Below are positions 17,398-23,719 of a stretch of 34,565 bases of DNA, piece by piece (the first letter of the stretch is position 1; every line of letters begins with the position of its first letter). A model generated the notes under the pieces. The model was not told the origin of the DNA and ran no database searches. It was given only the letters and a program-made list of their open reading frames with translations. Source of the DNA: a virus (lineage: Duplodnaviria > Heunggongvirae > Uroviricota > Caudoviricetes); the IMG/VR virus record IMGVR_UViG_2537562189_000007. The stretch is one strand, 5' to 3'. The position numbers and the translations under genes were made by a program.

Positions 17398-17427
17398 GCA
17401 TGTAAAAAGGCTCCTGCGATGAGGAGC
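17397..17427 (-). terminator. Intrinsic terminator (minus strand)
   Basis: Minus strand AGGCTCCTcatcgcAGGAGCCT (8-bp stem) followed by TTTTT; back-to-back with the plus-strand terminator. Confidence 0.5.
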
Positions 17428-17456
17428 CTGGATATATGCCTAATCTCTGTATACAG

Positions 17457-17650
17457 CATGATGCCGGGTGCCTCCCGGTGAATTCTGCAATGACCAGACA
17501 GAATCCGCAACTTGCCTATACAATACGCAACCAAACATCTGTCATTATGCCCCTCCGCTCAGGGGGATTCATCATGCAGGATTTTTTTAACAAATGCTCA
17601 GCCAGACAGGCAACCGTCAACTGACTGAATTGTGAGTGATTTAACATTTC
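17457..17650. repeat. Tandem direct repeat, copy 1 (period ~269 bp)
   Basis: Shares with copy 2 the blocks catg(a/g)tgccgggtgcctcccggtga, atgcccctccgc(t/a)cagggggattca(t/c)catgc and ttttaacaaat(g/a)ctcag...gacaggcaac(c/t)gtcaactgactgaattgtgag; the middle ~70 bp is diverged. Confidence 0.6.
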
Positions 17651-17674
17651 ACTGCCCGGTGCCTTCCCCTCATT

Positions 17675-17697
17675 AAAAAGCCCCTCCGGAGAGGGGC
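17675..17697 (-). terminator. Intrinsic terminator between the two repeat copies
   Basis: Palindrome GCCCCTCcggaGAGGGGC preceded on the plus strand by AAAAA, so the minus strand has hairpin plus TTTTT. Confidence 0.55.
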
Positions 17698-17725
17698 TAA
17701 AGCCGCGTATCTGTATCATCATGCG

Positions 17726-17916
17726 CATGGTGCCGGGTGCCTCCCGGTGAGTTCAGTATCAGCACCTGAACCCGCACCAGATAAGGGATATAACCAACCA
17801 CCTGTCGCTGATATGCCCCTCCGCACAGGGGGATTCACCATGCCAGTTTCTTTTAACAAATACTCAGTCTGACAGGCAACTGTCAACTGACTGAATTGTG
17901 AGACATTTAAAATTTT
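17726..17916. repeat. Tandem direct repeat, copy 2
   Basis: See copy 1; begins 269 bp after it with the same conserved blocks. Confidence 0.6.
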
Positions 17917-18005
17917 CGGGGCATGACTGATACCCGGCTAACCACCTGATGCTTCCTTTTTTAGCAACAAACAGGTCCACCAAAGTGAGACAGAAAAAAT
18001 AAGTG

Positions 18006-18082
18006 TGGCGCGTTGTACTGGATTCGAACCAGTGACCGATTGCTTAGAAGGCAATTGCTCTGTCCGGCTGAGCTAACAACGC
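18006..18082 (-). tRNA. argO: tRNA-Arg (anticodon UCU)
   Basis: Minus strand folds as a 77-nt cloverleaf GCGTTGT/ACAACGC acceptor, anticodon loop CUUCUAA, T-loop GGTTCGAATCC, encoded CCA. Confidence 0.8.
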
Positions 18083-18095
18083 TGAATACCGATAA

Positions 18096-18172
18096 TGGAC
18101 CGCCATCGAGGACTCGAACCCCGCGCAACCAGCTTCGAAGGCTGACGCTCTATCCCGATGAGCTAATGGCGG
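18096..18172 (-). tRNA. argN: tRNA-Arg (anticodon UCG)
   Basis: 77-nt cloverleaf with acceptor CCGCCAT/ATGGCGG, anticodon loop CUUCGAA, T-loop GGTTCGAGTCC, encoded CCA. Gene symbol by synteny with the ileZ-argN-argO cluster. Confidence 0.7.
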
Positions 18173-18181
18173 TATGTGATA

Positions 18182-18257
18182 TGGTGGCCCTTGCTGGATT
18201 TGAACCAGCGACCTGGCGATTATGAGTCGCTCGCTCTCACCACTGAGCTAAAGGGCC
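18182..18257 (-). tRNA. ileZ: tRNA with CAU anticodon, ileX-like (tRNA-Ile2; Met not excluded)
   Basis: 76-nt cloverleaf GGCCCTT...AAGGGCC-A-CCA, anticodon loop CUCAUAA; overall close to E. coli ileX as recalled. Confidence 0.65.
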
Positions 18258-18297
18258 GAGTGCAGGATAATAACGGTACGTAACTAATCCTGCAATA

Positions 18298-19356
18298 TCA
18301 TCCGTTCTGACTGGCTAAATCCTGAACTTCCCTGACCGTCTGCTCAAAACGTTCAGTCTCCAGCTCAACACCAGTTGCACGACGCCCCAGTGCCATCGCG
18401 GCTTTGGCTGTCGAACCCGACCCCATGAAAAAATCTGCAACCAGGTCCCCCGGACGACTGCTCGCGCTGATTATCTGCTGCAGCATTTCTGCCGGTTTTT
18501 CGCACGGATGTTTCCCGGGATAGTACTGCACCGGTTTATGCGTCCACACATCGGTGTACGGCACCTGCGCCGTCACGCCAAAATACCGCCGCTGATGCTT
18601 ATATTCACTCTGCAGTTCCGCATACTGCCGGTTCAGTGAAGTATACGTCTCCAGCAGCTGGTGGTGGGGCTTCTCCAGTTCACCCCGCTGATGCTTCTCT
18701 TCTGCCACCCGGGCAAACAGCGCCTGTAATTTCAGATAATCACTTTCGTTCGGCAGTTGCCACTGACTGGCACTGAACCAGTGCGACACCATGTTTTTCT
18801 TTCCTGTGGCATCCACTATCTGTTTTGCCGTTATCCCCAGGGCAGCACGCGCATCACGAAAGTAAGCAATCAGCGGAGCCATCACATGCTGTTTCAGTGC
18901 CCTGCCCTTCGCCTCATACCCGGCATCTTTCGGACGATACGGCCCCTGATAATGTTCCGCGAACAGAATGCGCTCTGTGGCGGGGAAATACGCCCTCAGG
19001 CTTTCCTTGTTGCACCCGTTCCAGCGTCCGGACGGCTTCGCCCAGATAATATGGTTCAGCACACTGAAGCGTTCACGCATCATGATTTCAATGTCAGATG
19101 CCAGGCGATGGCCACAGAACAGGTAAAGACTTCCGGCAGGTTTCAGCACCCGCCAGAACTGCGCAAGACACTGGTCCAGCCACTTCAGGTAATCATCGTC
19201 GCCCTTCCACTGGTTATCCCAGCCCTCAGGCTTCACTTTAAAGTACGGCGGATCCGTGACTATCAGGTCAACAGAATTTTCGGGTAACGACCGGATAAAT
19301 TCCAGGCAGTCGGCGTTGATTAACTCACAACTGGATATTTTTACAGTGTTAAACAT
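18298..19356 (-). CDS. DNA methyltransferase (N6-adenine/N4-cytosine, beta class)
   Basis: 352 aa with motif IV DPPY near the N-terminus (LIVTDPPY) and AdoMet motif I near the C-terminus (DFFMGSGST). Confidence 0.85.
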   Translation of the reverse strand: MFNTVKISSCELINADCLEFIRSLPENSVDLIVTDPPYFKVKPEGWDNQWKGDDDYLKWLDQCLAQFWRVLKPAGSLYLFCGHRLASDIEIMMRERFSVLNHIIWAKPSGRWNGCNKESLRAYFPATERILFAEHYQGPYRPKDAGYEAKGRALKQHVMAPLIAYFRDARAALGITAKQIVDATGKKNMVSHWFSASQWQLPNESDYLKLQALFARVAEEKHQRGELEKPHHQLLETYTSLNRQYAELQSEYKHQRRYFGVTAQVPYTDVWTHKPVQYYPGKHPCEKPAEMLQQIISASSRPGDLVADFFMGSGSTAKAAMALGRRATGVELETERFEQTVREVQDLASQNG

Positions 19357-19492
19357 GGATCATTAAGCCTGTCTCTGATAGGCTCATTCTGCTTTTGCGC
19401 AAAGCAGTGGGCCTGAGGTTTGCTTGTGATCCAGACGCATGAGCAGATGGCTGGTGAGTGCCCCTAACACCCACCAGCCGCCCATTTACCAC

Positions 19493-19516
19493 AAATAAAA
19501 AAGCCTTCATGACTGA
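19493..19516 (-). terminator. Intrinsic terminator after the 77-aa ORF
   Basis: Minus strand GCCTTCAgtcaTGAAGGC followed by TTTTTT. Confidence 0.45.
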
Positions 19517-19740
19517 AGGCGTCTGTAACAACCGAACTGATAGTCTGCCAGACCCGCCATAACAAGCTGGGTCAGTATTAACTGGCAGCGTTCGCGTGAA
19601 AGGTAAGTATTCTGCGCAATCTCCCCGACTGTCGCCGGTTCGGTGACGCTTAATTCATTAAACACCACTCTGGCGGTTTCGGTCATATCCTGCTGTTTCA
19701 GCATGTCTTTTTCCCTTTTCCGGTTAACGTGACACACCAA
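19507..19740 (-). CDS. Hypothetical small protein, possible winged-helix
   Basis: 77-aa ORF (likely start MLKQQDMTETARVVFNEL...) between the candidate tR' and the methyltransferase. Confidence 0.35.
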   Translation of the reverse strand: MVCHVNRKREKDMLKQQDMTETARVVFNELSVTEPATVGEIAQNTYLSRERCQLILTQLVMAGLADYQFGCYRRLQS

Positions 19741-19826
19741 TAACTCTTGTCAAAAAAGCCAGCAAGCTGAAAGACCGGTATTAATAACCACCTGCACATT
19801 TTATGTACTGGCGTGATTTCAGTCAT

Positions 19827-19851
19827 AAAAAAACCCGCCTGGCGACGGGTG
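19827..19851 (-). terminator. Candidate tR' intrinsic terminator
   Basis: Minus strand CACCCGTCGCCAGGCGGG followed by TTTTTTT, about 70 nt downstream of the candidate late promoter. Confidence 0.5.
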
Positions 19852-19896
19852 TAAAAATCTTCTAACGTCAGGCATAAAACGCCCATCGTTAGGGCA

Positions 19897-19924
19897 AATT
19901 TACCACAGATTCGGGAAAAATCAA
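19897..19924 (-). promoter_or_regulatory. Candidate late promoter pR' (with qut region)
   Basis: Minus strand TTGATT - 16 nt - TGGTAAATT (extended -10 like) directly downstream of the Q-like gene stop. Confidence 0.35.
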
Positions 19925-19929
19925 CAAAG

Positions 19930-20751
19930 CTATCTGGTCACCTTTTTCAGTTGTTGTTCTGCCCATGCTTCTTCAATATCAAACTGCACCACCAGCGTAT
20001 CGTAAAAACGTTTAACTGTTTTTTTCCATGTATCAAGAGATATGGCATCGGTTACATTACATATGGCATTAAATGCCTCCGTTGAAGGTAATCTTTCATA
20101 GCCACGCCCACCACAACGCTGGCAGTTTCTGAAAACCGGCACACCCTGTTTTTCCGACTCTTCACGATGAATGGCAACACCGCGCCCACGACAATCTTTA
20201 CAGGCGGTGGAAACCTCCCCCTTTCCGCCACACTCCGGACAGGCAACTTTTACCACCTCCCTGACTTTTTTCCATTCCTCCCAGTAAGACGGATACACGC
20301 CTTTTGTGCACTTTGCCCACACTGGCGGCTTACCATCCGGATACTGGATCTTGTTTGTAAAAACCTCGCTTTCAATAAATTTTTTTCCGTGACAGCAGGG
20401 GCACTGTTTTTTGCTCGCCGCGCTACGGGCATAATCTTCAAACGCATACGAAGCCATAATACGCATCACTGCCGGTTTTATTTCTGCCGGGAGTTTTCTT
20501 AACGCCGCCACGCGATCACACCGACTGAGTGCATATTCTGTCAGCAATTCTGTTGCCCGCTCTCTGTCATTCATACTAATGCCCATTCTCCCAAGGAACG
20601 CAGAAAACCCCATCTCAGCCCGATTCTGTGTCATGCCCTGCGCGGCCATCACATCAGTGATACTCAGCGCATCTTTTGACGTTGAGGCCGATGCATCAGT
20701 CAGGCCGGGGGATTTTGGGGAGTAGTATTTCGGTAAATCTTCCAGTTTCAT
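19930..20751 (-). CDS. Putative late antiterminator Q-like protein with DnaJ-type zinc-finger repeats
   Basis: 273 aa; position (after rusA and DUF968, before pR'/tR'-like elements and the late genes) matches Q; three CxxCxGxG repeats (CPECGGKG, CKDCRGRG, CQRCGGRG) plus CPCCHG. Confidence 0.55.
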   Translation of the reverse strand: MKLEDLPKYYSPKSPGLTDASASTSKDALSITDVMAAQGMTQNRAEMGFSAFLGRMGISMNDRERATELLTEYALSRCDRVAALRKLPAEIKPAVMRIMASYAFEDYARSAASKKQCPCCHGKKFIESEVFTNKIQYPDGKPPVWAKCTKGVYPSYWEEWKKVREVVKVACPECGGKGEVSTACKDCRGRGVAIHREESEKQGVPVFRNCQRCGGRGYERLPSTEAFNAICNVTDAISLDTWKKTVKRFYDTLVVQFDIEEAWAEQQLKKVTR

Positions 20752-21122
20752 TTTTTGACCTGCCCTTCAAGCATTATGGGGTAAATCTTCACCCCCAGAC
20801 GTCCACCAGATACTGGCTGACCACGTACAATATTGATTTCATCAAACTGTTCATCGTCGATAAGCAGTCCCGCATGCGTCAGCGCATCCAGCGGTGCTTT
20901 CAGAATGTTGTCCAGGTCACGACGACGCTTATCCGGTGGCTCTGCAATAATTTTTATTGCCAGCCGTCCGGACAGGCTTAATTTCAGTCGCTGCTGGCGA
21001 ACAATAAACGCCACTGCCCGGCGATAACGCTCCCCGGCTTTTGATACAAAATATGTGCTGCCACGACGTCGCCAGTAAGTATTCACCGTCGGCGGGTAAG
21101 GCAAAACAAACTCTATACACAT
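20748..21122 (-). CDS. rusA: Holliday junction resolvase RusA
   Basis: RusA-like sequence (LPYPPTVNTYW..., PPDKRRRDLDNILKAPLDALTHAGLLIDDEQ); ATG at 21122 preceded by AAGGGGGG. Confidence 0.8.
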   Translation of the reverse strand: MCIEFVLPYPPTVNTYWRRRGSTYFVSKAGERYRRAVAFIVRQQRLKLSLSGRLAIKIIAEPPDKRRRDLDNILKAPLDALTHAGLLIDDEQFDEINIVRGQPVSGGRLGVKIYPIMLEGQVKK

Positions 21123-21135
21123 CAATACCCCCCTT

Positions 21136-22185
21136 TTACCCAAGCACACCGGTTGCAAAGGCGTGATCAAGAAAACGAAAAATTAAATCAACCTGAGAAC
21201 CATGCTTTTCTTCGAACGCCAGCGGATCCGCATGAAGCTCGTTATGATGCTCCCGACACAGCGGTAGCGTGAAAATATCGTGGGCTTTTGTTCCCATTCC
21301 CCCCTGACCATGACCAATCAGGTGATGCGGATCGTCAGCTGGCTTACCACAACACGCACACGGCTGTGTCTTTACCCAGCGCGTGTATTTCTCATTAACC
21401 CAACGGCGATGTTTAGGCCGCTTCATAAACGATTCAGGAGACTCCGGATCAACGGCGATACTGGCAACCGTTTTTTTCTGTGGTGGATTTTGTTGCTGGT
21501 GGACGTGAAGTGGCAGCGCAATATTTTTTGTGCGCTGCTTCAGTATGCTGATGGCTGTCTGTTCTCCCGGTACGATGTCACTCTCACGGTATACGGAGCG
21601 GATTTTTTCCACCGGTAATCCCAGCGAACGACGCGCTACTGCCTCAGGTAGTGCATCCACCACCTGATTGCAGGCCGCCCACCAGGATAATTCGGCCAGC
21701 GATAACTCCCTCTCCTGCGTACCGTTTATTGCGTGACGTATAACATCAATCATCCAGACTGCCAGATTCTGCTGAGCAAGTTGATCGAGTGATTCTGATG
21801 TCTGGTCGCGCAGCTGGTTGTCACAGTGCCAGCACAACACCATCGCGCCGGTACCGTAACGGTGAATGACGGTTTCGCTGTGATGATAATCGCCGTGTGG
21901 CCACTGGCAGGATTTCACGTGACGTAATAACCAGTCAGACAGTGCACCTGCACCACCTGCTGCACGAATAACCCGCTCATCGCTGAAAAATGGCAGTAAT
22001 GTTTTATCCTCTGCCAGCGGCTGGCGAACGGCAGGAACGACTCCGGACGGCAGACCGCGCATGTTTTTCGGTTCCGGCTCCACCAATATTCTGCCGTTAT
22101 GGAATGCTGACATTGATTCACGGCCCGGCTTAAGGAGCACCATCCCGAGTTCCGGTACCAGAACAGGTCGAAGTAATACCCGCAC
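21136..22185 (-). CDS. DUF968-family phage protein with C-terminal HNH-like zinc motif
   Basis: 349 aa; C-terminus CACCGKPADDPHHLIGHGQGGMGTKAHDIFTLPLCREHHNELH; GTG start preceded by GGAGG. Confidence 0.6.
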   Translation of the reverse strand: MRVLLRPVLVPELGMVLLKPGRESMSAFHNGRILVEPEPKNMRGLPSGVVPAVRQPLAEDKTLLPFFSDERVIRAAGGAGALSDWLLRHVKSCQWPHGDYHHSETVIHRYGTGAMVLCWHCDNQLRDQTSESLDQLAQQNLAVWMIDVIRHAINGTQERELSLAELSWWAACNQVVDALPEAVARRSLGLPVEKIRSVYRESDIVPGEQTAISILKQRTKNIALPLHVHQQQNPPQKKTVASIAVDPESPESFMKRPKHRRWVNEKYTRWVKTQPCACCGKPADDPHHLIGHGQGGMGTKAHDIFTLPLCREHHNELHADPLAFEEKHGSQVDLIFRFLDHAFATGVLG

Positions 22186-22186
22186 G

Positions 22187-22519
22187 TTACCTCCAGATAC
22201 GCTGCTGGAATGTGCGGGACGGACGCGGTGGGCGTTCGGAATAAGGGAGCCTGACGGAGATTATCCAGTGACGACGATCGAAGCTGAGATCTTTCTGAAA
22301 CTCGTAACCACGTCTGCGGTAGCACTGGATCAGCCATTCGGCCTGTTCTTCAGTGCATGGGTCATGCTGGAACCAGTCAGATTTGAATGCATGAGAACGC
22401 CGCCCGTGCCTGCTGGCAGGGGCGGCGGAGTTATCCGAATTGTGTAATTTGGTATCTTGCGCCATCGGTTGTCTCTGCTGGCGCAGCAGGTGCCAGTTGT
22501 TCAGGCTGGCGTGCGGCAA
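22187..22519 (-). CDS. Hypothetical nin-region protein
   Basis: 110-aa ORF abutting the DUF968 gene; no confident motif. Confidence 0.35.
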   Translation of the reverse strand: MPHASLNNWHLLRQQRQPMAQDTKLHNSDNSAAPASRHGRRSHAFKSDWFQHDPCTEEQAEWLIQCYRRRGYEFQKDLSFDRRHWIISVRLPYSERPPRPSRTFQQRIWR

Positions 22520-22537
22520 TATTGTCTCTGATTTCTG

Positions 22538-22565
22538 TTGTCGTCAACAGGCAGCGTGCTATCAT
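22538..22565 (+). promoter_or_regulatory. Candidate sigma70 promoter for the parDE moron
   Basis: TTGTCG - 16 nt - TATCAT about 35 nt upstream of the ParD ATG. Confidence 0.3.
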
Positions 22566-22600
22566 CGAATAGTGTTCTATCCTACTCCGTGAGGTTTACC

Positions 22601-22858
22601 ATGCGTACAACCCAACAATTCAGCATTACATTAACTAACGAGATGGCTGACATGGTGCGCGCCCGTGTGGCTTCCGGTGCCTATGCTTCAGAAAGCGAGG
22701 TCATTCGTGAAGGGCTTCGCGCACTGAATGAGCGCGATAAAGCAATCGAAGCGTGGTTAACGCATTCAGCCGCCCCCTCTCTTGATTCTATCCGCGAAAA
22801 CCCAAACAACGGACGCTCCATTTCACAGGTTCGCGCCGCGATTCGATCCGGGAAGTAA
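22601..22858 (+). CDS. parD: ParD-family antitoxin (RHH)
   Basis: 85 aa from ATG 22601 (GAGG 6 nt upstream); FSITLTNEMADMVRARVASGAYASESEVIREGLRAL matches the ParD/COG3609 pattern. Confidence 0.75.
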   Translation: MRTTQQFSITLTNEMADMVRARVASGAYASESEVIREGLRALNERDKAIEAWLTHSAAPSLDSIRENPNNGRSISQVRAAIRSGK

Positions 22859-22863
22859 TCTGC

Positions 22864-23163
22864 ATGACATATGAAGTCATCATTACTCCTGAGGCCGAAC
22901 AACAAATAATCAACCTGCACAGATATATAACGGAGAAAGCAGGGAACATCATTGCTGACAATTATGCCAATGCGCTTCTTGATTATCTTGATGGGTTTTC
23001 TACATTCCCGCATCGGGGCAATAAACGCGATGATATTCGCCAGGGGATGCGGGTAACTCATTTCCGCCACAGAACGATTATTGCTTTTGCCGTTGATGGC
23101 AGAAAAGTCTTTATTGTCGGTATCTATCATGGTGGGCAAAGTTATGAAACCGATTTCTTATAA
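22864..23163 (+). CDS. parE: ParE/RelE-family toxin
   Basis: 99 aa, starts 5 nt after ParD stop; ParE-like sequence (VIITPEAEQQIINLHRYI...FIVGIYHGGQ). Confidence 0.75.
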   Translation: MTYEVIITPEAEQQIINLHRYITEKAGNIIADNYANALLDYLDGFSTFPHRGNKRDDIRQGMRVTHFRHRTIIAFAVDGRKVFIVGIYHGGQSYETDFL

Positions 23164-23244
23164 ACTTTTACCCACATCATTCCGGTGTTAGAATAAACCG
23201 TCTGCCCCTCTCTTACTGCGGATTCGTAGGCTATATAAATCAAA

Positions 23245-23278
23245 GATCCCGGCTCATGTTTGTGGCGGGATCTTTTTT
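23245..23278 (+). terminator. Intrinsic terminator after parE
   Basis: GATCCCG - 14-nt loop - CGGGATC followed by TTTTTT. Confidence 0.55.
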
Positions 23279-23285
23279 CGGCGAT

Positions 23286-23369
23286 TTATCCCCAGCGGCA
23301 AATCGAATACACCACCAGCGCCACCGCCATTGCAATACCAACATTTGAGAAGGCCTCAGGCCAGCTCAT
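23286..23369 (-). CDS. Small hydrophobic peptide (27 aa)
   Basis: ATG overlaps the DUF551 stop (caATGAgc) with AAGGAGG 7 nt upstream; MSWPEAFSNVGIAMAVALVVYSICRWG. Confidence 0.25.
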   Translation of the reverse strand: MSWPEAFSNVGIAMAVALVVYSICRWG

Positions 23370-23719
23370 TGGCGCACCTCCTTCGGCGGTTCTGGTAGCG
23401 GCATCCAGTGTGTGGCTTCACACACGATAGGCGCACCGAAACACTGCGCATACTGGAAGTCACCCGTATTATCCAGGTTAAAACCTGTAAACTGTTCACC
23501 CGTGCTGGACACAAACAGTAGTACATCAACACCAACTGGCGGCATTCGCTCACTACAGCTTATCCAACCATCCGGAGTTACCGGAGAATTGCCAGCCTTG
23601 CGCATGGCAATCTCCATGATTTCAACCATATCCCTTGGTGGAATTTTACAATGCTGACCAGTATGCTTCTGCTGCCTGGCATATTCGAGGATGTGCTCCA
23701 GCTTGATACGATTAATCAT
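23366..23719 (-). CDS. DUF551-family phage protein
   Basis: 117 aa ending ...CEATHWMPLPEPP, the characteristic DUF551 C-terminal pattern. Confidence 0.55.
   Translation of the reverse strand: MINRIKLEHILEYARQQKHTGQHCKIPPRDMVEIMEIAMRKAGNSPVTPDGWISCSERMPPVGVDVLLFVSSTGEQFTGFNLDNTGDFQYAQCFGAPIVCEATHWMPLPEPPKEVRQ

What the first reader, a model, noticed from the sequence alone, without database searches (positions are those of the whole stretch)
19930..20751. Q-position protein carrying DnaJ-type CxxCxGxG zinc-finger repeats
The protein at the antiterminator position has three CxxCxGxG repeats and an extra CPCCHG, the signature of the DnaJ cysteine-rich domain rather than the single zinc finger of lambda Q. 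Either it is a distinct antiterminator family or a different late regulator.
Basis: partly seen in the sequence, partly recalled or inferred. Interest (0 to 1): 0.5.

Follow-up and report, generated by a model that had tools for sequence, protein, structure and literature searches.

The report
Lambda-type Q antiterminator, two-zinc form
This gene encodes an ordinary, already-annotated member of the phage lambda Q family of late-gene antiterminators. Like phage phi80 Q, it has an extra zinc-binding hairpin inserted next to the lambda-type zinc finger, so it is not a new kind of regulator.

Summary
The 273-aa ORF at 19930-20751 (minus strand) carries C117PCCHG, C171PECGGKG, C184KDCRGRG and C210QRCGGRG. 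No shuffle out of 200,000 gives three such motifs, and all eight motif cysteines are essentially invariant in 224 relatives.

The protein is a clear lambda-Q-family member:
- Pfam PF03589, E = 3.8e-51.
- Lambda Q structure 7UBM, E = 2.5e-41.

Lambda Q's own zinc ribbon is built from two CxxCxGxG motifs, which correspond to motifs 3 and 4 here. What differs is a 68-residue insertion (residues 114-181) that adds motifs 1 and 2 around a long beta-hairpin. Phi80 Q and hundreds of enterobacterial Q proteins share this insertion.

Directly downstream lies a lambda-like late promoter. Its pause element AACGATGGG is identical to lambda's and equally spaced from the -10 hexamer, and a terminator follows. 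This module recurs downstream of most related Q genes examined, 47 of 79 on a strict pattern match.

The protein differs by one residue from RefSeq WP_000762902.1, annotated "antitermination protein", which sits upstream of stx2 in other E. coli prophages. No second Q gene was found.

Verdict: already known, low interest.

The parts
19930..20751 (-). Q gene: 273-aa lambda-Q-family (PF03589) transcription antiterminator, long (phi80-like) form
20620..20751 (-). Residues 1-44, homologous to the lambda Q N-terminal segment that refolds into the 'torus/nozzle' in the RNA-exit channel
   Evidence: Residues 1-113 align colinearly with lambda Q 1-113, 84.5 bits. G39 is invariant in the three-way alignment with lambda and phi80 Q. 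Role of lambda residues 1-44 taken from PMC9388147.
20209..20412 (-). 68-residue insertion relative to lambda Q (residues 114-181): motif 1, a long beta-hairpin with a variable tip, motif 2. Predicted second Cys4 zinc site
   Evidence: Gap opposite lambda Q, present in phi80 Q. AF2 strands 125-136 and 159-170 are flanked by the two motifs. The hairpin tip is hypervariable in length while the motifs are invariant.
20380..20403 (-). Motif 1: C117-P-C-C-H-G-K-K (CxxCxG; a full CxxCxGxG in most relatives)
20218..20241 (-). Motif 2: C171PECGGKG
20179..20202 (-). Motif 3: C184KDCRGRG, equivalent to lambda Q C118RDCHGTG (first knuckle of the lambda Q zinc-ribbon 'arm')
20101..20124 (-). Motif 4: C210QRCGGRG, equivalent to lambda Q C144GRCKGVG (second knuckle of the lambda Q arm)
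19897..19924 (-). PR'-like late promoter: -35 TTGATT (19924-19919), 16-nt spacer TTTCCCGAATCTGTGG holding the putative Q-binding element (19918-19903), -10 TAAATT (19902-19897)
   Evidence: Sequence. Same layout as lambda PR' and as the annotated phi80 pR' with its Q site between -35 and -10. Spacer TTTTCC(C/G)GAATCTGTG is shared by loci whose Q is at least 55% identical and differs in other clades. The simple promoter scan did not flag it.
19882..19890 (-). Sigma-dependent pause element AACGAT followed by GGG, 6 nt after the -10 hexamer
   Evidence: Identical 9-mer and spacing in lambda PR'. A strict pattern finds it in 47 of 79 related genome loci, and variants occur in most of the rest.
19826..19850 (-). 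tR'-like intrinsic terminator: stem 19850-19833 plus a T7 run. Predicted terminated transcript of about 64 nt
   Evidence: Terminator scan. RNA fold -21.3 kcal/mol, z = -2.5. The L084 terminator differs at two opposed stem positions and still forms a GC stem plus U run. A terminator lies 40-70 nt after the pause element in most related loci.
18006..19704 (-). First downstream genes that read-through would express: a 65-aa winged-helix-like ORF (19704-19507), DNA methyltransferase (19356-18298), tRNA-Ile2(CAT)/Arg/Arg (18257-18006)
   Evidence: In L084 the same arrangement continues into stx2AB.
20748..21170 (-). Upstream rusA, whose stop overlaps the Q start (ATGA). PGAP starts the gene further in

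Best explanation
The ORF encodes the late-gene antiterminator Q of a lambdoid, Stx-phage-like E. coli prophage. It belongs to the lambda Q family.

By homology with lambda Q, the inferred mechanism is as follows:
1. The helical body with its helix-turn-helix, plus the zinc-ribbon arm (motifs 3 and 4), bind a Q-binding element between the -35 and -10 hexamers of the late promoter. That promoter lies immediately downstream at 19924-19897.
2. RNA polymerase pauses there under sigma-70 control, because of the -10-like AACGAT at +1 to +6.
3. Q loads onto the paused complex.
4. With NusA, the N-terminal roughly 44 residues refold into a nozzle in the RNA-exit channel.
5. The modified polymerase reads through the terminator at 19850-19826.
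6. It continues into the methylase, the tRNAs, the esterase and the lysis and morphogenesis genes. In sister prophages it also continues into stx2.

Compared with lambda Q, the protein has a 68-residue insertion at the body-arm junction. Motifs 1 and 2 flank a long beta-hairpin and most likely bind a second zinc ion. Together with the lambda-type site this forms a double-zinc module that weakly resembles the DnaJ cysteine-rich domain. Phi80 Q and most enterobacterial relatives retrieved here share this long form.

Shown here: family membership, motif conservation, predicted fold, the promoter/pause/terminator module and its conservation.
Inferred: zinc stoichiometry, the pairing of the motifs, the exact Q-binding element, and the antitermination activity itself.
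For: - Pfam PF03589: 171.6 bits against a 26.7-bit cut-off, E = 3.8e-51. No hit to the other Q families.
- PHROG Q-like families, E about 1e-112.
- phmmer against the PDB: lambda Q 7ubm_Q E = 2.5e-41. The two colinear blocks are query 1-113 with lambda 1-113, and query 182-273 with lambda 116-207.
- Phi80 Q is 42% identical (alignment A1) and has the same insertion. Its GenBank record annotates pR', the Q binding site and terminators.
- All eight motif cysteines are invariant in 224 relatives.
- Downstream promoter: TAAATT, 6 nt, then AACGATGGG, identical to lambda PR'. A terminator follows.
- The same module was matched in 47 of 79 loci of related Q genes across Enterobacterales. The -35/-10 spacer sequence changes with the Q clade.
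- dN/dS of 0.10-0.13 against 90-94% identical alleles.
- The protein is one residue from WP_000762902.1, 'antitermination protein'. That protein lies upstream of stx2c in NZ_AP042564.1.
- More than 1,000 E. coli genomes carry the DUF968-RusA-Q-methylase-tRNA block.
- No second Q gene was found in the window's nin region or in the near-identical annotated prophage.
- Mechanistic roles of the lambda Q parts are taken from PMC9388147.
Against: - No functional data exist for this allele. Antitermination, zinc content and the DNA site are all inferred.
- The consensus promoter scan did not flag the proposed PR': the -35 is TTGATT, the -10 is TAAATT and the spacer is 16 nt.
- The role of the 68-residue insertion is unknown.
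- Model coordinates could not be inspected, so the pairing motif 1+2 and motif 3+4 rests on indirect grounds. These are homology to lambda Q, the predicted secondary structure, and the fact that motifs 1 and 2 always occur together.
- The paper on phi80 Q (Guo & Roberts 2004) could not be read here.
Confidence: 0.93

Rival explanations
1. It is a lambda-family Q whose extra zinc hairpin changes the loading mechanism. For example, the hairpin could read additional bases of a longer Q-binding element, or contact sigma region 4 or the beta flap. The long form would then be a mechanistic variant rather than a decorated lambda Q.
For: - The insertion sits at the body-arm hinge. In lambda Q this hinge swings about 75 degrees on DNA binding (PMC9388147).
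- The knuckles and the strand bases of the hairpin are strongly conserved while the tip is hypervariable.
- The spacer sequences co-vary with the Q clade.
Against: - The promoter, pause element and terminator geometry are the same as in lambda.
- The N-terminal nozzle segment and the C-terminal body are conserved.
- Nothing here shows that the insertion touches DNA or polymerase.
Confidence: 0.25
2. It is a DnaJ-like zinc-finger chaperone or holdase, or some other non-antiterminator late regulator, that merely occupies the Q slot.
For: - Sub-threshold Pfam DnaJ_CXXCXGXG hit: E = 7e-7, 29.8 bits against a cut-off of 32.7.
- Weak TIGR02349 DnaJ hit: 23 bits against a cut-off of 377.
- One homologue is named 'chaperone protein DnaJ' by its source (P0032).
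Against: - No J domain and no DnaJ C-terminal domain hit.
- About 205 of the 273 residues are colinear with lambda Q.
- The whole-protein fold match is to lambda Q.
- A cognate lambda-type promoter/pause/terminator lies directly downstream.
- No other Q candidate exists in the prophage.
Confidence: 0.02
3. It is an inert relic in a defective prophage and is no longer used.
For: - The window's prophage lacks stx at the usual slot, so it may be a cryptic element.
- No expression data are available.
Against: - The reading frame is full length.
- dN/dS is about 0.1.
- Promoter, pause element and terminator are intact and identical to those of an stx2c-carrying sister prophage.
- Clusters P0002 and P0004 (97% and 90% identical to the query) hold thousands of member sequences.
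Confidence: 0.05

Closest known systems
Bacteriophage lambda Q (Pfam PF03589; PDB 4MO1, 7UBJ-7UBN)
   Same: - Homologous over residues 1-113 and 182-273, at about 40% identity.
- Same N-terminal nozzle segment, helical HTH body and Cys4 zinc-ribbon arm built from two CxxCxGxG motifs with identical 26-residue spacing.
- Same gene position.
- Same PR' layout, with an identical AACGATGGG pause element.
   Different: - 273 aa against 207 aa. A 68-residue insertion at the body-arm junction adds two more Cys motifs and a long beta-hairpin.
- Different -35/-10 spacer, so presumably a different Q-binding element.
- A much shorter terminated leader: about 64 nt here, against a lambda terminator that lies well over 150 nt downstream of the promoter.
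Bacteriophage phi80 Q (gp17, YP_007947979.1)
   Same: - Same long architecture with the same insertion and four Cys motifs; 42% identity.
- Its pR', Q site and terminator are annotated directly downstream in the GenBank record.
- It was studied alongside lambda Q by Guo & Roberts 2004, which is cited in PMC9388147 but could not be read here.
   Different: - Phi80's third motif is CxC (C-R-C-H-G-K-G) instead of CxxC.
- Its first motif is a full CxxCxGxG.
- Different spacer and Q-binding-element sequence, and AACGCT rather than AACGAT.
RefSeq WP_000762902.1 'antitermination protein' of E. coli Stx and Stx-like prophages (annotated quuQ in Stx2a phage Stx2_EH1910)
   Same: - Identical except R55K.
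- Same flanking genes.
- In NZ_AP042564.1 the same Q-methylase-tRNA block is followed by stx2c.
   Different: The window's prophage carries two STnc100 sRNA copies instead of stx between the tRNAs and the esterase.
DnaJ/Hsp40 cysteine-rich domain (PF00684; PDB 1EXK) and relatives BSD2 and anti-TRAP
   Same: - CxxCxGxG repeats in a set of four that presumably bind two zinc ions.
   Different: - No J domain or DnaJ C-terminal domains.
- The Pfam score is below its cut-off.
- The inferred pairing is sequential (1+2, 3+4), whereas DnaJ is nested (1+4, 2+3; from knowledge of DnaJ). At best this is a permuted analogue.
- The function is DNA and polymerase binding, not chaperoning.
Q21 (PF06530), Q82 (PF06323) and AlpA antiterminators
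   Same: - Same regulatory role and gene position.
- PMC9371919 notes that lambda Q resembles AlpA with a zinc finger inserted.
   Different: No sequence match to PF06530 or PF06323. Those families lack the zinc ribbon.

Membership tests
Lambda Q family (Pfam PF03589 'Antiterm') | Profile match above the curated cut-off | tested here: met
   171.6 bits against 26.7, E = 3.8e-51.
Lambda Q family (Pfam PF03589 'Antiterm') | Colinear homology to lambda Q, including the N-terminal nozzle-forming segment and the C-terminal HTH body | tested here: met
   Query 1-113 aligns with lambda 1-113, and query 182-273 with lambda 116-207; E = 2.5e-41. Invariant G39, L268 and T272 in the three-way alignment.
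Lambda Q family (Pfam PF03589 'Antiterm') | Cys4 zinc ribbon ('arm') formed by two CxxC knuckles | tested here: met
   C184, C187, C210 and C213 align with lambda C118, C121, C144 and C147 with the same spacing. They are invariant in 224 relatives. Zinc binding itself was not measured.
Lambda Q family (Pfam PF03589 'Antiterm') | Three-dimensional fold of lambda Q | tested here: met
Lambda Q family (Pfam PF03589 'Antiterm') | Gene placed between the nin/rusA region and the late operon, followed by a constitutive-type promoter with a Q-binding element between -35 and -10, a sigma-dependent pause element, and a terminator | tested here: met
   The pause element is identical to lambda's, and the module was matched in 47 of 79 related loci. 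The identity of the Q-binding element is inferred only.
Lambda Q family (Pfam PF03589 'Antiterm') | Q-binding-element-dependent antitermination activity on RNA polymerase | not testable with these tools
   Requires in vitro transcription or reporter assays.
DnaJ/Hsp40 (type I) chaperones | J domain with the HPD motif | tested here: not met
   No PF00226 hit in the Pfam scan. TIGR02349 scores 23.4 bits against a cut-off of 377.2, covering only residues 163-218.
DnaJ/Hsp40 (type I) chaperones | Cysteine-rich domain PF00684 above the curated cut-off | tested here: not met
   29.8 bits against 32.7, covering residues 171-218 on profile positions 1-52 of 65.
DnaJ/Hsp40 (type I) chaperones | Nested two-zinc topology (motifs 1+4 and 2+3) | tested here: inconclusive
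Q21 family (PF06530) / Q82 family (PF06323) | Profile match | tested here: not met
   Neither family is reported at E <= 0.01.

The most novel reading that the evidence does not exclude
The conserved motif 1-hairpin-motif 2 insertion of long-form lambda-family Q proteins may be a functional second zinc module. With the lambda-type arm it would form a circularly permuted analogue of the DnaJ cysteine-rich domain. It might give these Q proteins an extra DNA or RNA-polymerase contact, with the variable hairpin tip as a specificity determinant. In that case the best-studied Q (lambda) would be the reduced form of the family.
Probability: 0.2. Interest if true: 0.35.

Novelty: already known. Interest (0 to 1): 0.13.

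Why it matters
The value is mainly in correct annotation. The gene is the prophage's lambda-type late-gene switch. The identical protein controls read-through towards stx2 in sister prophages, so this allele and its promoter/terminator are relevant to Shiga-toxin expression typing. The one open point is what the second zinc hairpin does. It is absent from lambda Q, the only member with solved structures, yet present in most enterobacterial relatives retrieved here. This is a modest structural question, not a new system.

Tried and rejected
1. Internal duplication as the origin of the insertion. An hhalign comparison of the insert profile (112-181) against the arm profile (180-222) aligned only 11 columns around a single CxxCxGxG(F/Y) motif, at probability 49%. 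This gives no support beyond motif-level similarity.
2. A second Q gene. Pfam scans of the other nin-region ORFs found DUF551, Ead/Ea22, DUF4406, an HTH protein and DUF1627. The PGAP annotation of the 99%-identical prophage shows none either.
3. Reading Guo & Roberts 2004 (PMC415771) and Vorobiev 2014 (PMC3951671). Neither is held in the library. A phrase search for phi80 Q literature found nothing useful.
4. Inspecting cysteine-cysteine distances in the AF2 model. Coordinates are not exposed to the sandbox, so zinc-site pairing remains an inference.
5. NCBIfam gave only sub-threshold DnaJ, anti-TRAP and zinc-ribbon hits and has no Q-specific model hit.
6. The generic promoter scan missed the proposed PR'. 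It was identified by comparison with lambda and phi80 and by conservation.

Full report
**The observation**

The ORF at 19930-20751 on the minus strand encodes 273 residues. A regex scan finds C117PCCHG(KK), C171PECGGKG, C184KDCRGRG and C210QRCGGRG.

This is not a composition effect. Among 200,000 shuffles of the protein's own residues, 0.2% had one such motif and none had three.

In 224 full-length relatives the eight motif cysteines are present in 223-224 sequences. The residue that is K124 here is G in 204 of them, so the first motif is a full CxxCxGxG in most of the family.

**What the protein is**

- Pfam places it in PF03589 ('Antitermination protein Q') at 171.6 bits, against a cut-off of 26.7. 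The DnaJ cysteine-rich model PF00684 scores 29.8 bits, below its 32.7-bit cut-off. No J domain, Q21-family or Q82-family model is hit.
- PHROGs gives 'anti-termination protein Q-like' at E about 1e-112.
- Against PDB sequences the best match is lambda Q itself (7ubm_Q, E = 2.5e-41). It aligns in two colinear blocks: query 1-113 with lambda 1-113, and query 182-273 with lambda 116-207.
- PMC9388147 states that PF03589 is the lambda Q family, distinct from Q21 (PF06530) and Q82 (PF06323). It also states that lambda Q consists of a helical HTH 'body' (61-113, 153-207), a zinc-ribbon 'arm' (114-152) and an N-terminal segment (1-44) that refolds into a nozzle in the RNA-exit channel.

The alignment shows that lambda Q's own zinc ribbon is built from two CxxCxGxG motifs, CRDCHGTG and CGRCKGVG. 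These are the counterparts of motifs 3 and 4 here, with the same 26-residue spacing. The motif type is therefore a family trait, not a departure from lambda Q.

**What differs from lambda Q**

Residues 114-181 are an insertion at the body-arm junction that carries motifs 1 and 2.

- Phi80 Q (42% identical in alignment A1) has the same insertion.
- So do the 224 full-length relatives retrieved from Escherichia, Salmonella, Klebsiella, Enterobacter, Yersinia, Serratia, Pantoea, Proteus, Xenorhabdus and others.
- In the phage collection, 131 of 249 matching records cover at least 80% of the query, which is the long form.

An AlphaFold2 model built from 89 sequences has mean pLDDT 87.4. It places motif 1 just before a 12-residue strand (125-136) and motif 2 just after its partner strand (159-170). 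A lambda-like arm follows: motif 3, a short hairpin plus helix, then motif 4. The hairpin tip is hypervariable in length, whereas the knuckles and strand bases are conserved.

I infer that motifs 1+2 form a second zinc site and motifs 3+4 keep the lambda site. The grounds are homology to lambda Q, the hairpin geometry, and the fact that motifs 1 and 2 are always present or absent together. That is sequential pairing, at best a permuted analogue of DnaJ's nested arrangement. I could not check it on coordinates. A profile-profile test gave no evidence that the insertion arose by duplication of the arm.

**Context and the likely target**

The gene follows DUF968 and rusA, overlapping the rusA stop as ATGA. 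The minus strand immediately after the TAG stop reads:

TTGATT, then 16 nt (TTTCCCGAATCTGTGG), then TAAATT, then TGCCCT, then AACGATGGG.

About 40 nt further on comes a GC-rich hairpin with a T7 run at 19850-19826.

Lambda PR' reads TTGACT, 17 nt, TAAATT, TGACTC, AACGATGGG. The -10 hexamer, the spacing and the 9-nt pause element are identical. The phi80 record annotates the Q binding site between the -35 and -10 hexamers of its pR', followed by a terminator.

Related Q genes were collected from 79 genome loci. A strict pattern (-10-like hexamer, 5-8 nt, AACGAT-like, GG) matched in 47, and most others show variants by eye. A terminator usually follows within 40-70 nt. The -35/-10 spacer is shared within Q clades and differs between them:
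- TTTTCC(C/G)GAATCTGTG in loci whose Q is at least 55% identical to this one
- GTGGCGGAATTTGGC in an Atlantibacter/Klebsiella clade
- TTCGCGGAAAAACTGGA in the phi80 clade

This is the pattern expected of a cognate binding element. The predicted terminated transcript is about 64 nt and folds into a 5' hairpin plus the terminator.

Downstream lie a 65-aa ORF, a DNA methyltransferase, tRNA-Ile2/Arg/Arg, a NanS-p-like esterase and the lysis genes.

**Identity with known entries**

- The window is 99.2% identical over 17997-23415 to an E. coli prophage where PGAP calls this gene 'antitermination protein' WP_000762902.1. The window's protein differs only by R55K.
- The same protein, promoter and pause element lie upstream of methylase-tRNAs-stx2c in NZ_AP042564.1. 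Its terminator differs at two opposed stem positions and still forms a GC stem plus U run.
- An Stx2a phage annotates a 97%-identical gene as quuQ.
- More than 1,000 E. coli genomes carry the block.
- dN/dS against 90% and 94% identical alleles is 0.13 and 0.10.
- No other Q-family gene is present.

**Mechanism**

By homology with lambda Q (PMC9388147), the steps are:
1. Q binds the element in the PR' spacer through its HTH body and zinc arm.
2. It engages RNA polymerase paused by sigma-70 at the AACGAT element.
3. With NusA it forms a nozzle from its N-terminal segment.
4. The polymerase becomes resistant to the 19850-19826 terminator and to later terminators.

Family membership and the cis-element architecture are shown here. 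Activity, the exact DNA site, zinc stoichiometry and the role of the inserted hairpin are inferred or unknown.

**Verdict**

The contrast with lambda Q, and the suggestion of a new family or a different regulator, are not. This is a known, widely annotated lambda-family Q of the phi80-like long form. The only mildly open question is the function of the second zinc hairpin.

Noticed in passing
window 17398-17606 and 17668-17872 (minus strand): Two tandem full-length copies of the sRNA STnc100 (Rfam RF02076; 183 and 146 bits against a gathering score of 47). They lie between the tRNA trio and the NanS-p-like esterase, the slot where sister prophages carry stx2AB.
   Followed up: partly
window 19824-19890 (minus strand): The predicted 5' end of the PR' transcript pairs AACG of the pause element with a downstream CGUU, around a GGGCGU/AUGCCU stem. 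A matching (T/A)CGTT about 15-20 nt after AACGAT recurs in lambda and in most related loci. Its significance was not examined.
   Followed up: no
L002 (phi80) and many P-ids; alignment A3 columns around motif 3: In the phi80 clade the third motif is C-R-C-H-G-K-G (CxC), one residue shorter than the CxxC of lambda Q and of this protein. This is an unusual knuckle for a zinc ribbon.
   Followed up: no
window 19507-19704 (minus strand): A conserved 65-aa ORF with a weak winged-helix (TrmB-like) match, E = 0.002. It has its own terminator-like hairpin at 19520-19503 and lies between tR' and the DNA methyltransferase. RefSeq annotates it as hypothetical.
   Followed up: partly
window 22538-22858 and 22864-23163 (plus strand): A ParD/ParE-type toxin-antitoxin pair is embedded in the nin region on the opposite strand to its neighbours.
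   Followed up: no
window 18182-18257 (minus strand): ARAGORN calls the CAT-anticodon tRNA 'Met', whereas RefSeq annotates the identical gene as tRNA-Ile. It is the first of the tRNA trio that sits upstream of stx in the sister prophage L084.
   Followed up: partly
L078 (Actinomadura rugatobispora assembly, 667-bp contig) and L059 ('uncultured Bacteroides sp.' MAG): Enterobacterial-type long-form Q genes occur in assemblies of unrelated taxa, on very short contigs. The cause is probably contamination or mis-binning.
   Followed up: no
P0039 (fragment): A 272-aa homologue has many extra Cys, Phe, Leu and Val substitutions across the zinc region (for example CCGCGVVIYCEE). It looks like a damaged or error-rich sequence rather than a real variant.
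   Followed up: no
window 18298-19356 (minus strand): A 352-aa N6/N4 DNA methyltransferase (PF01555, E = 1e-44) sits inside the late operon between Q and the tRNAs. It is conserved in the stx2-carrying sister prophages.
   Followed up: no
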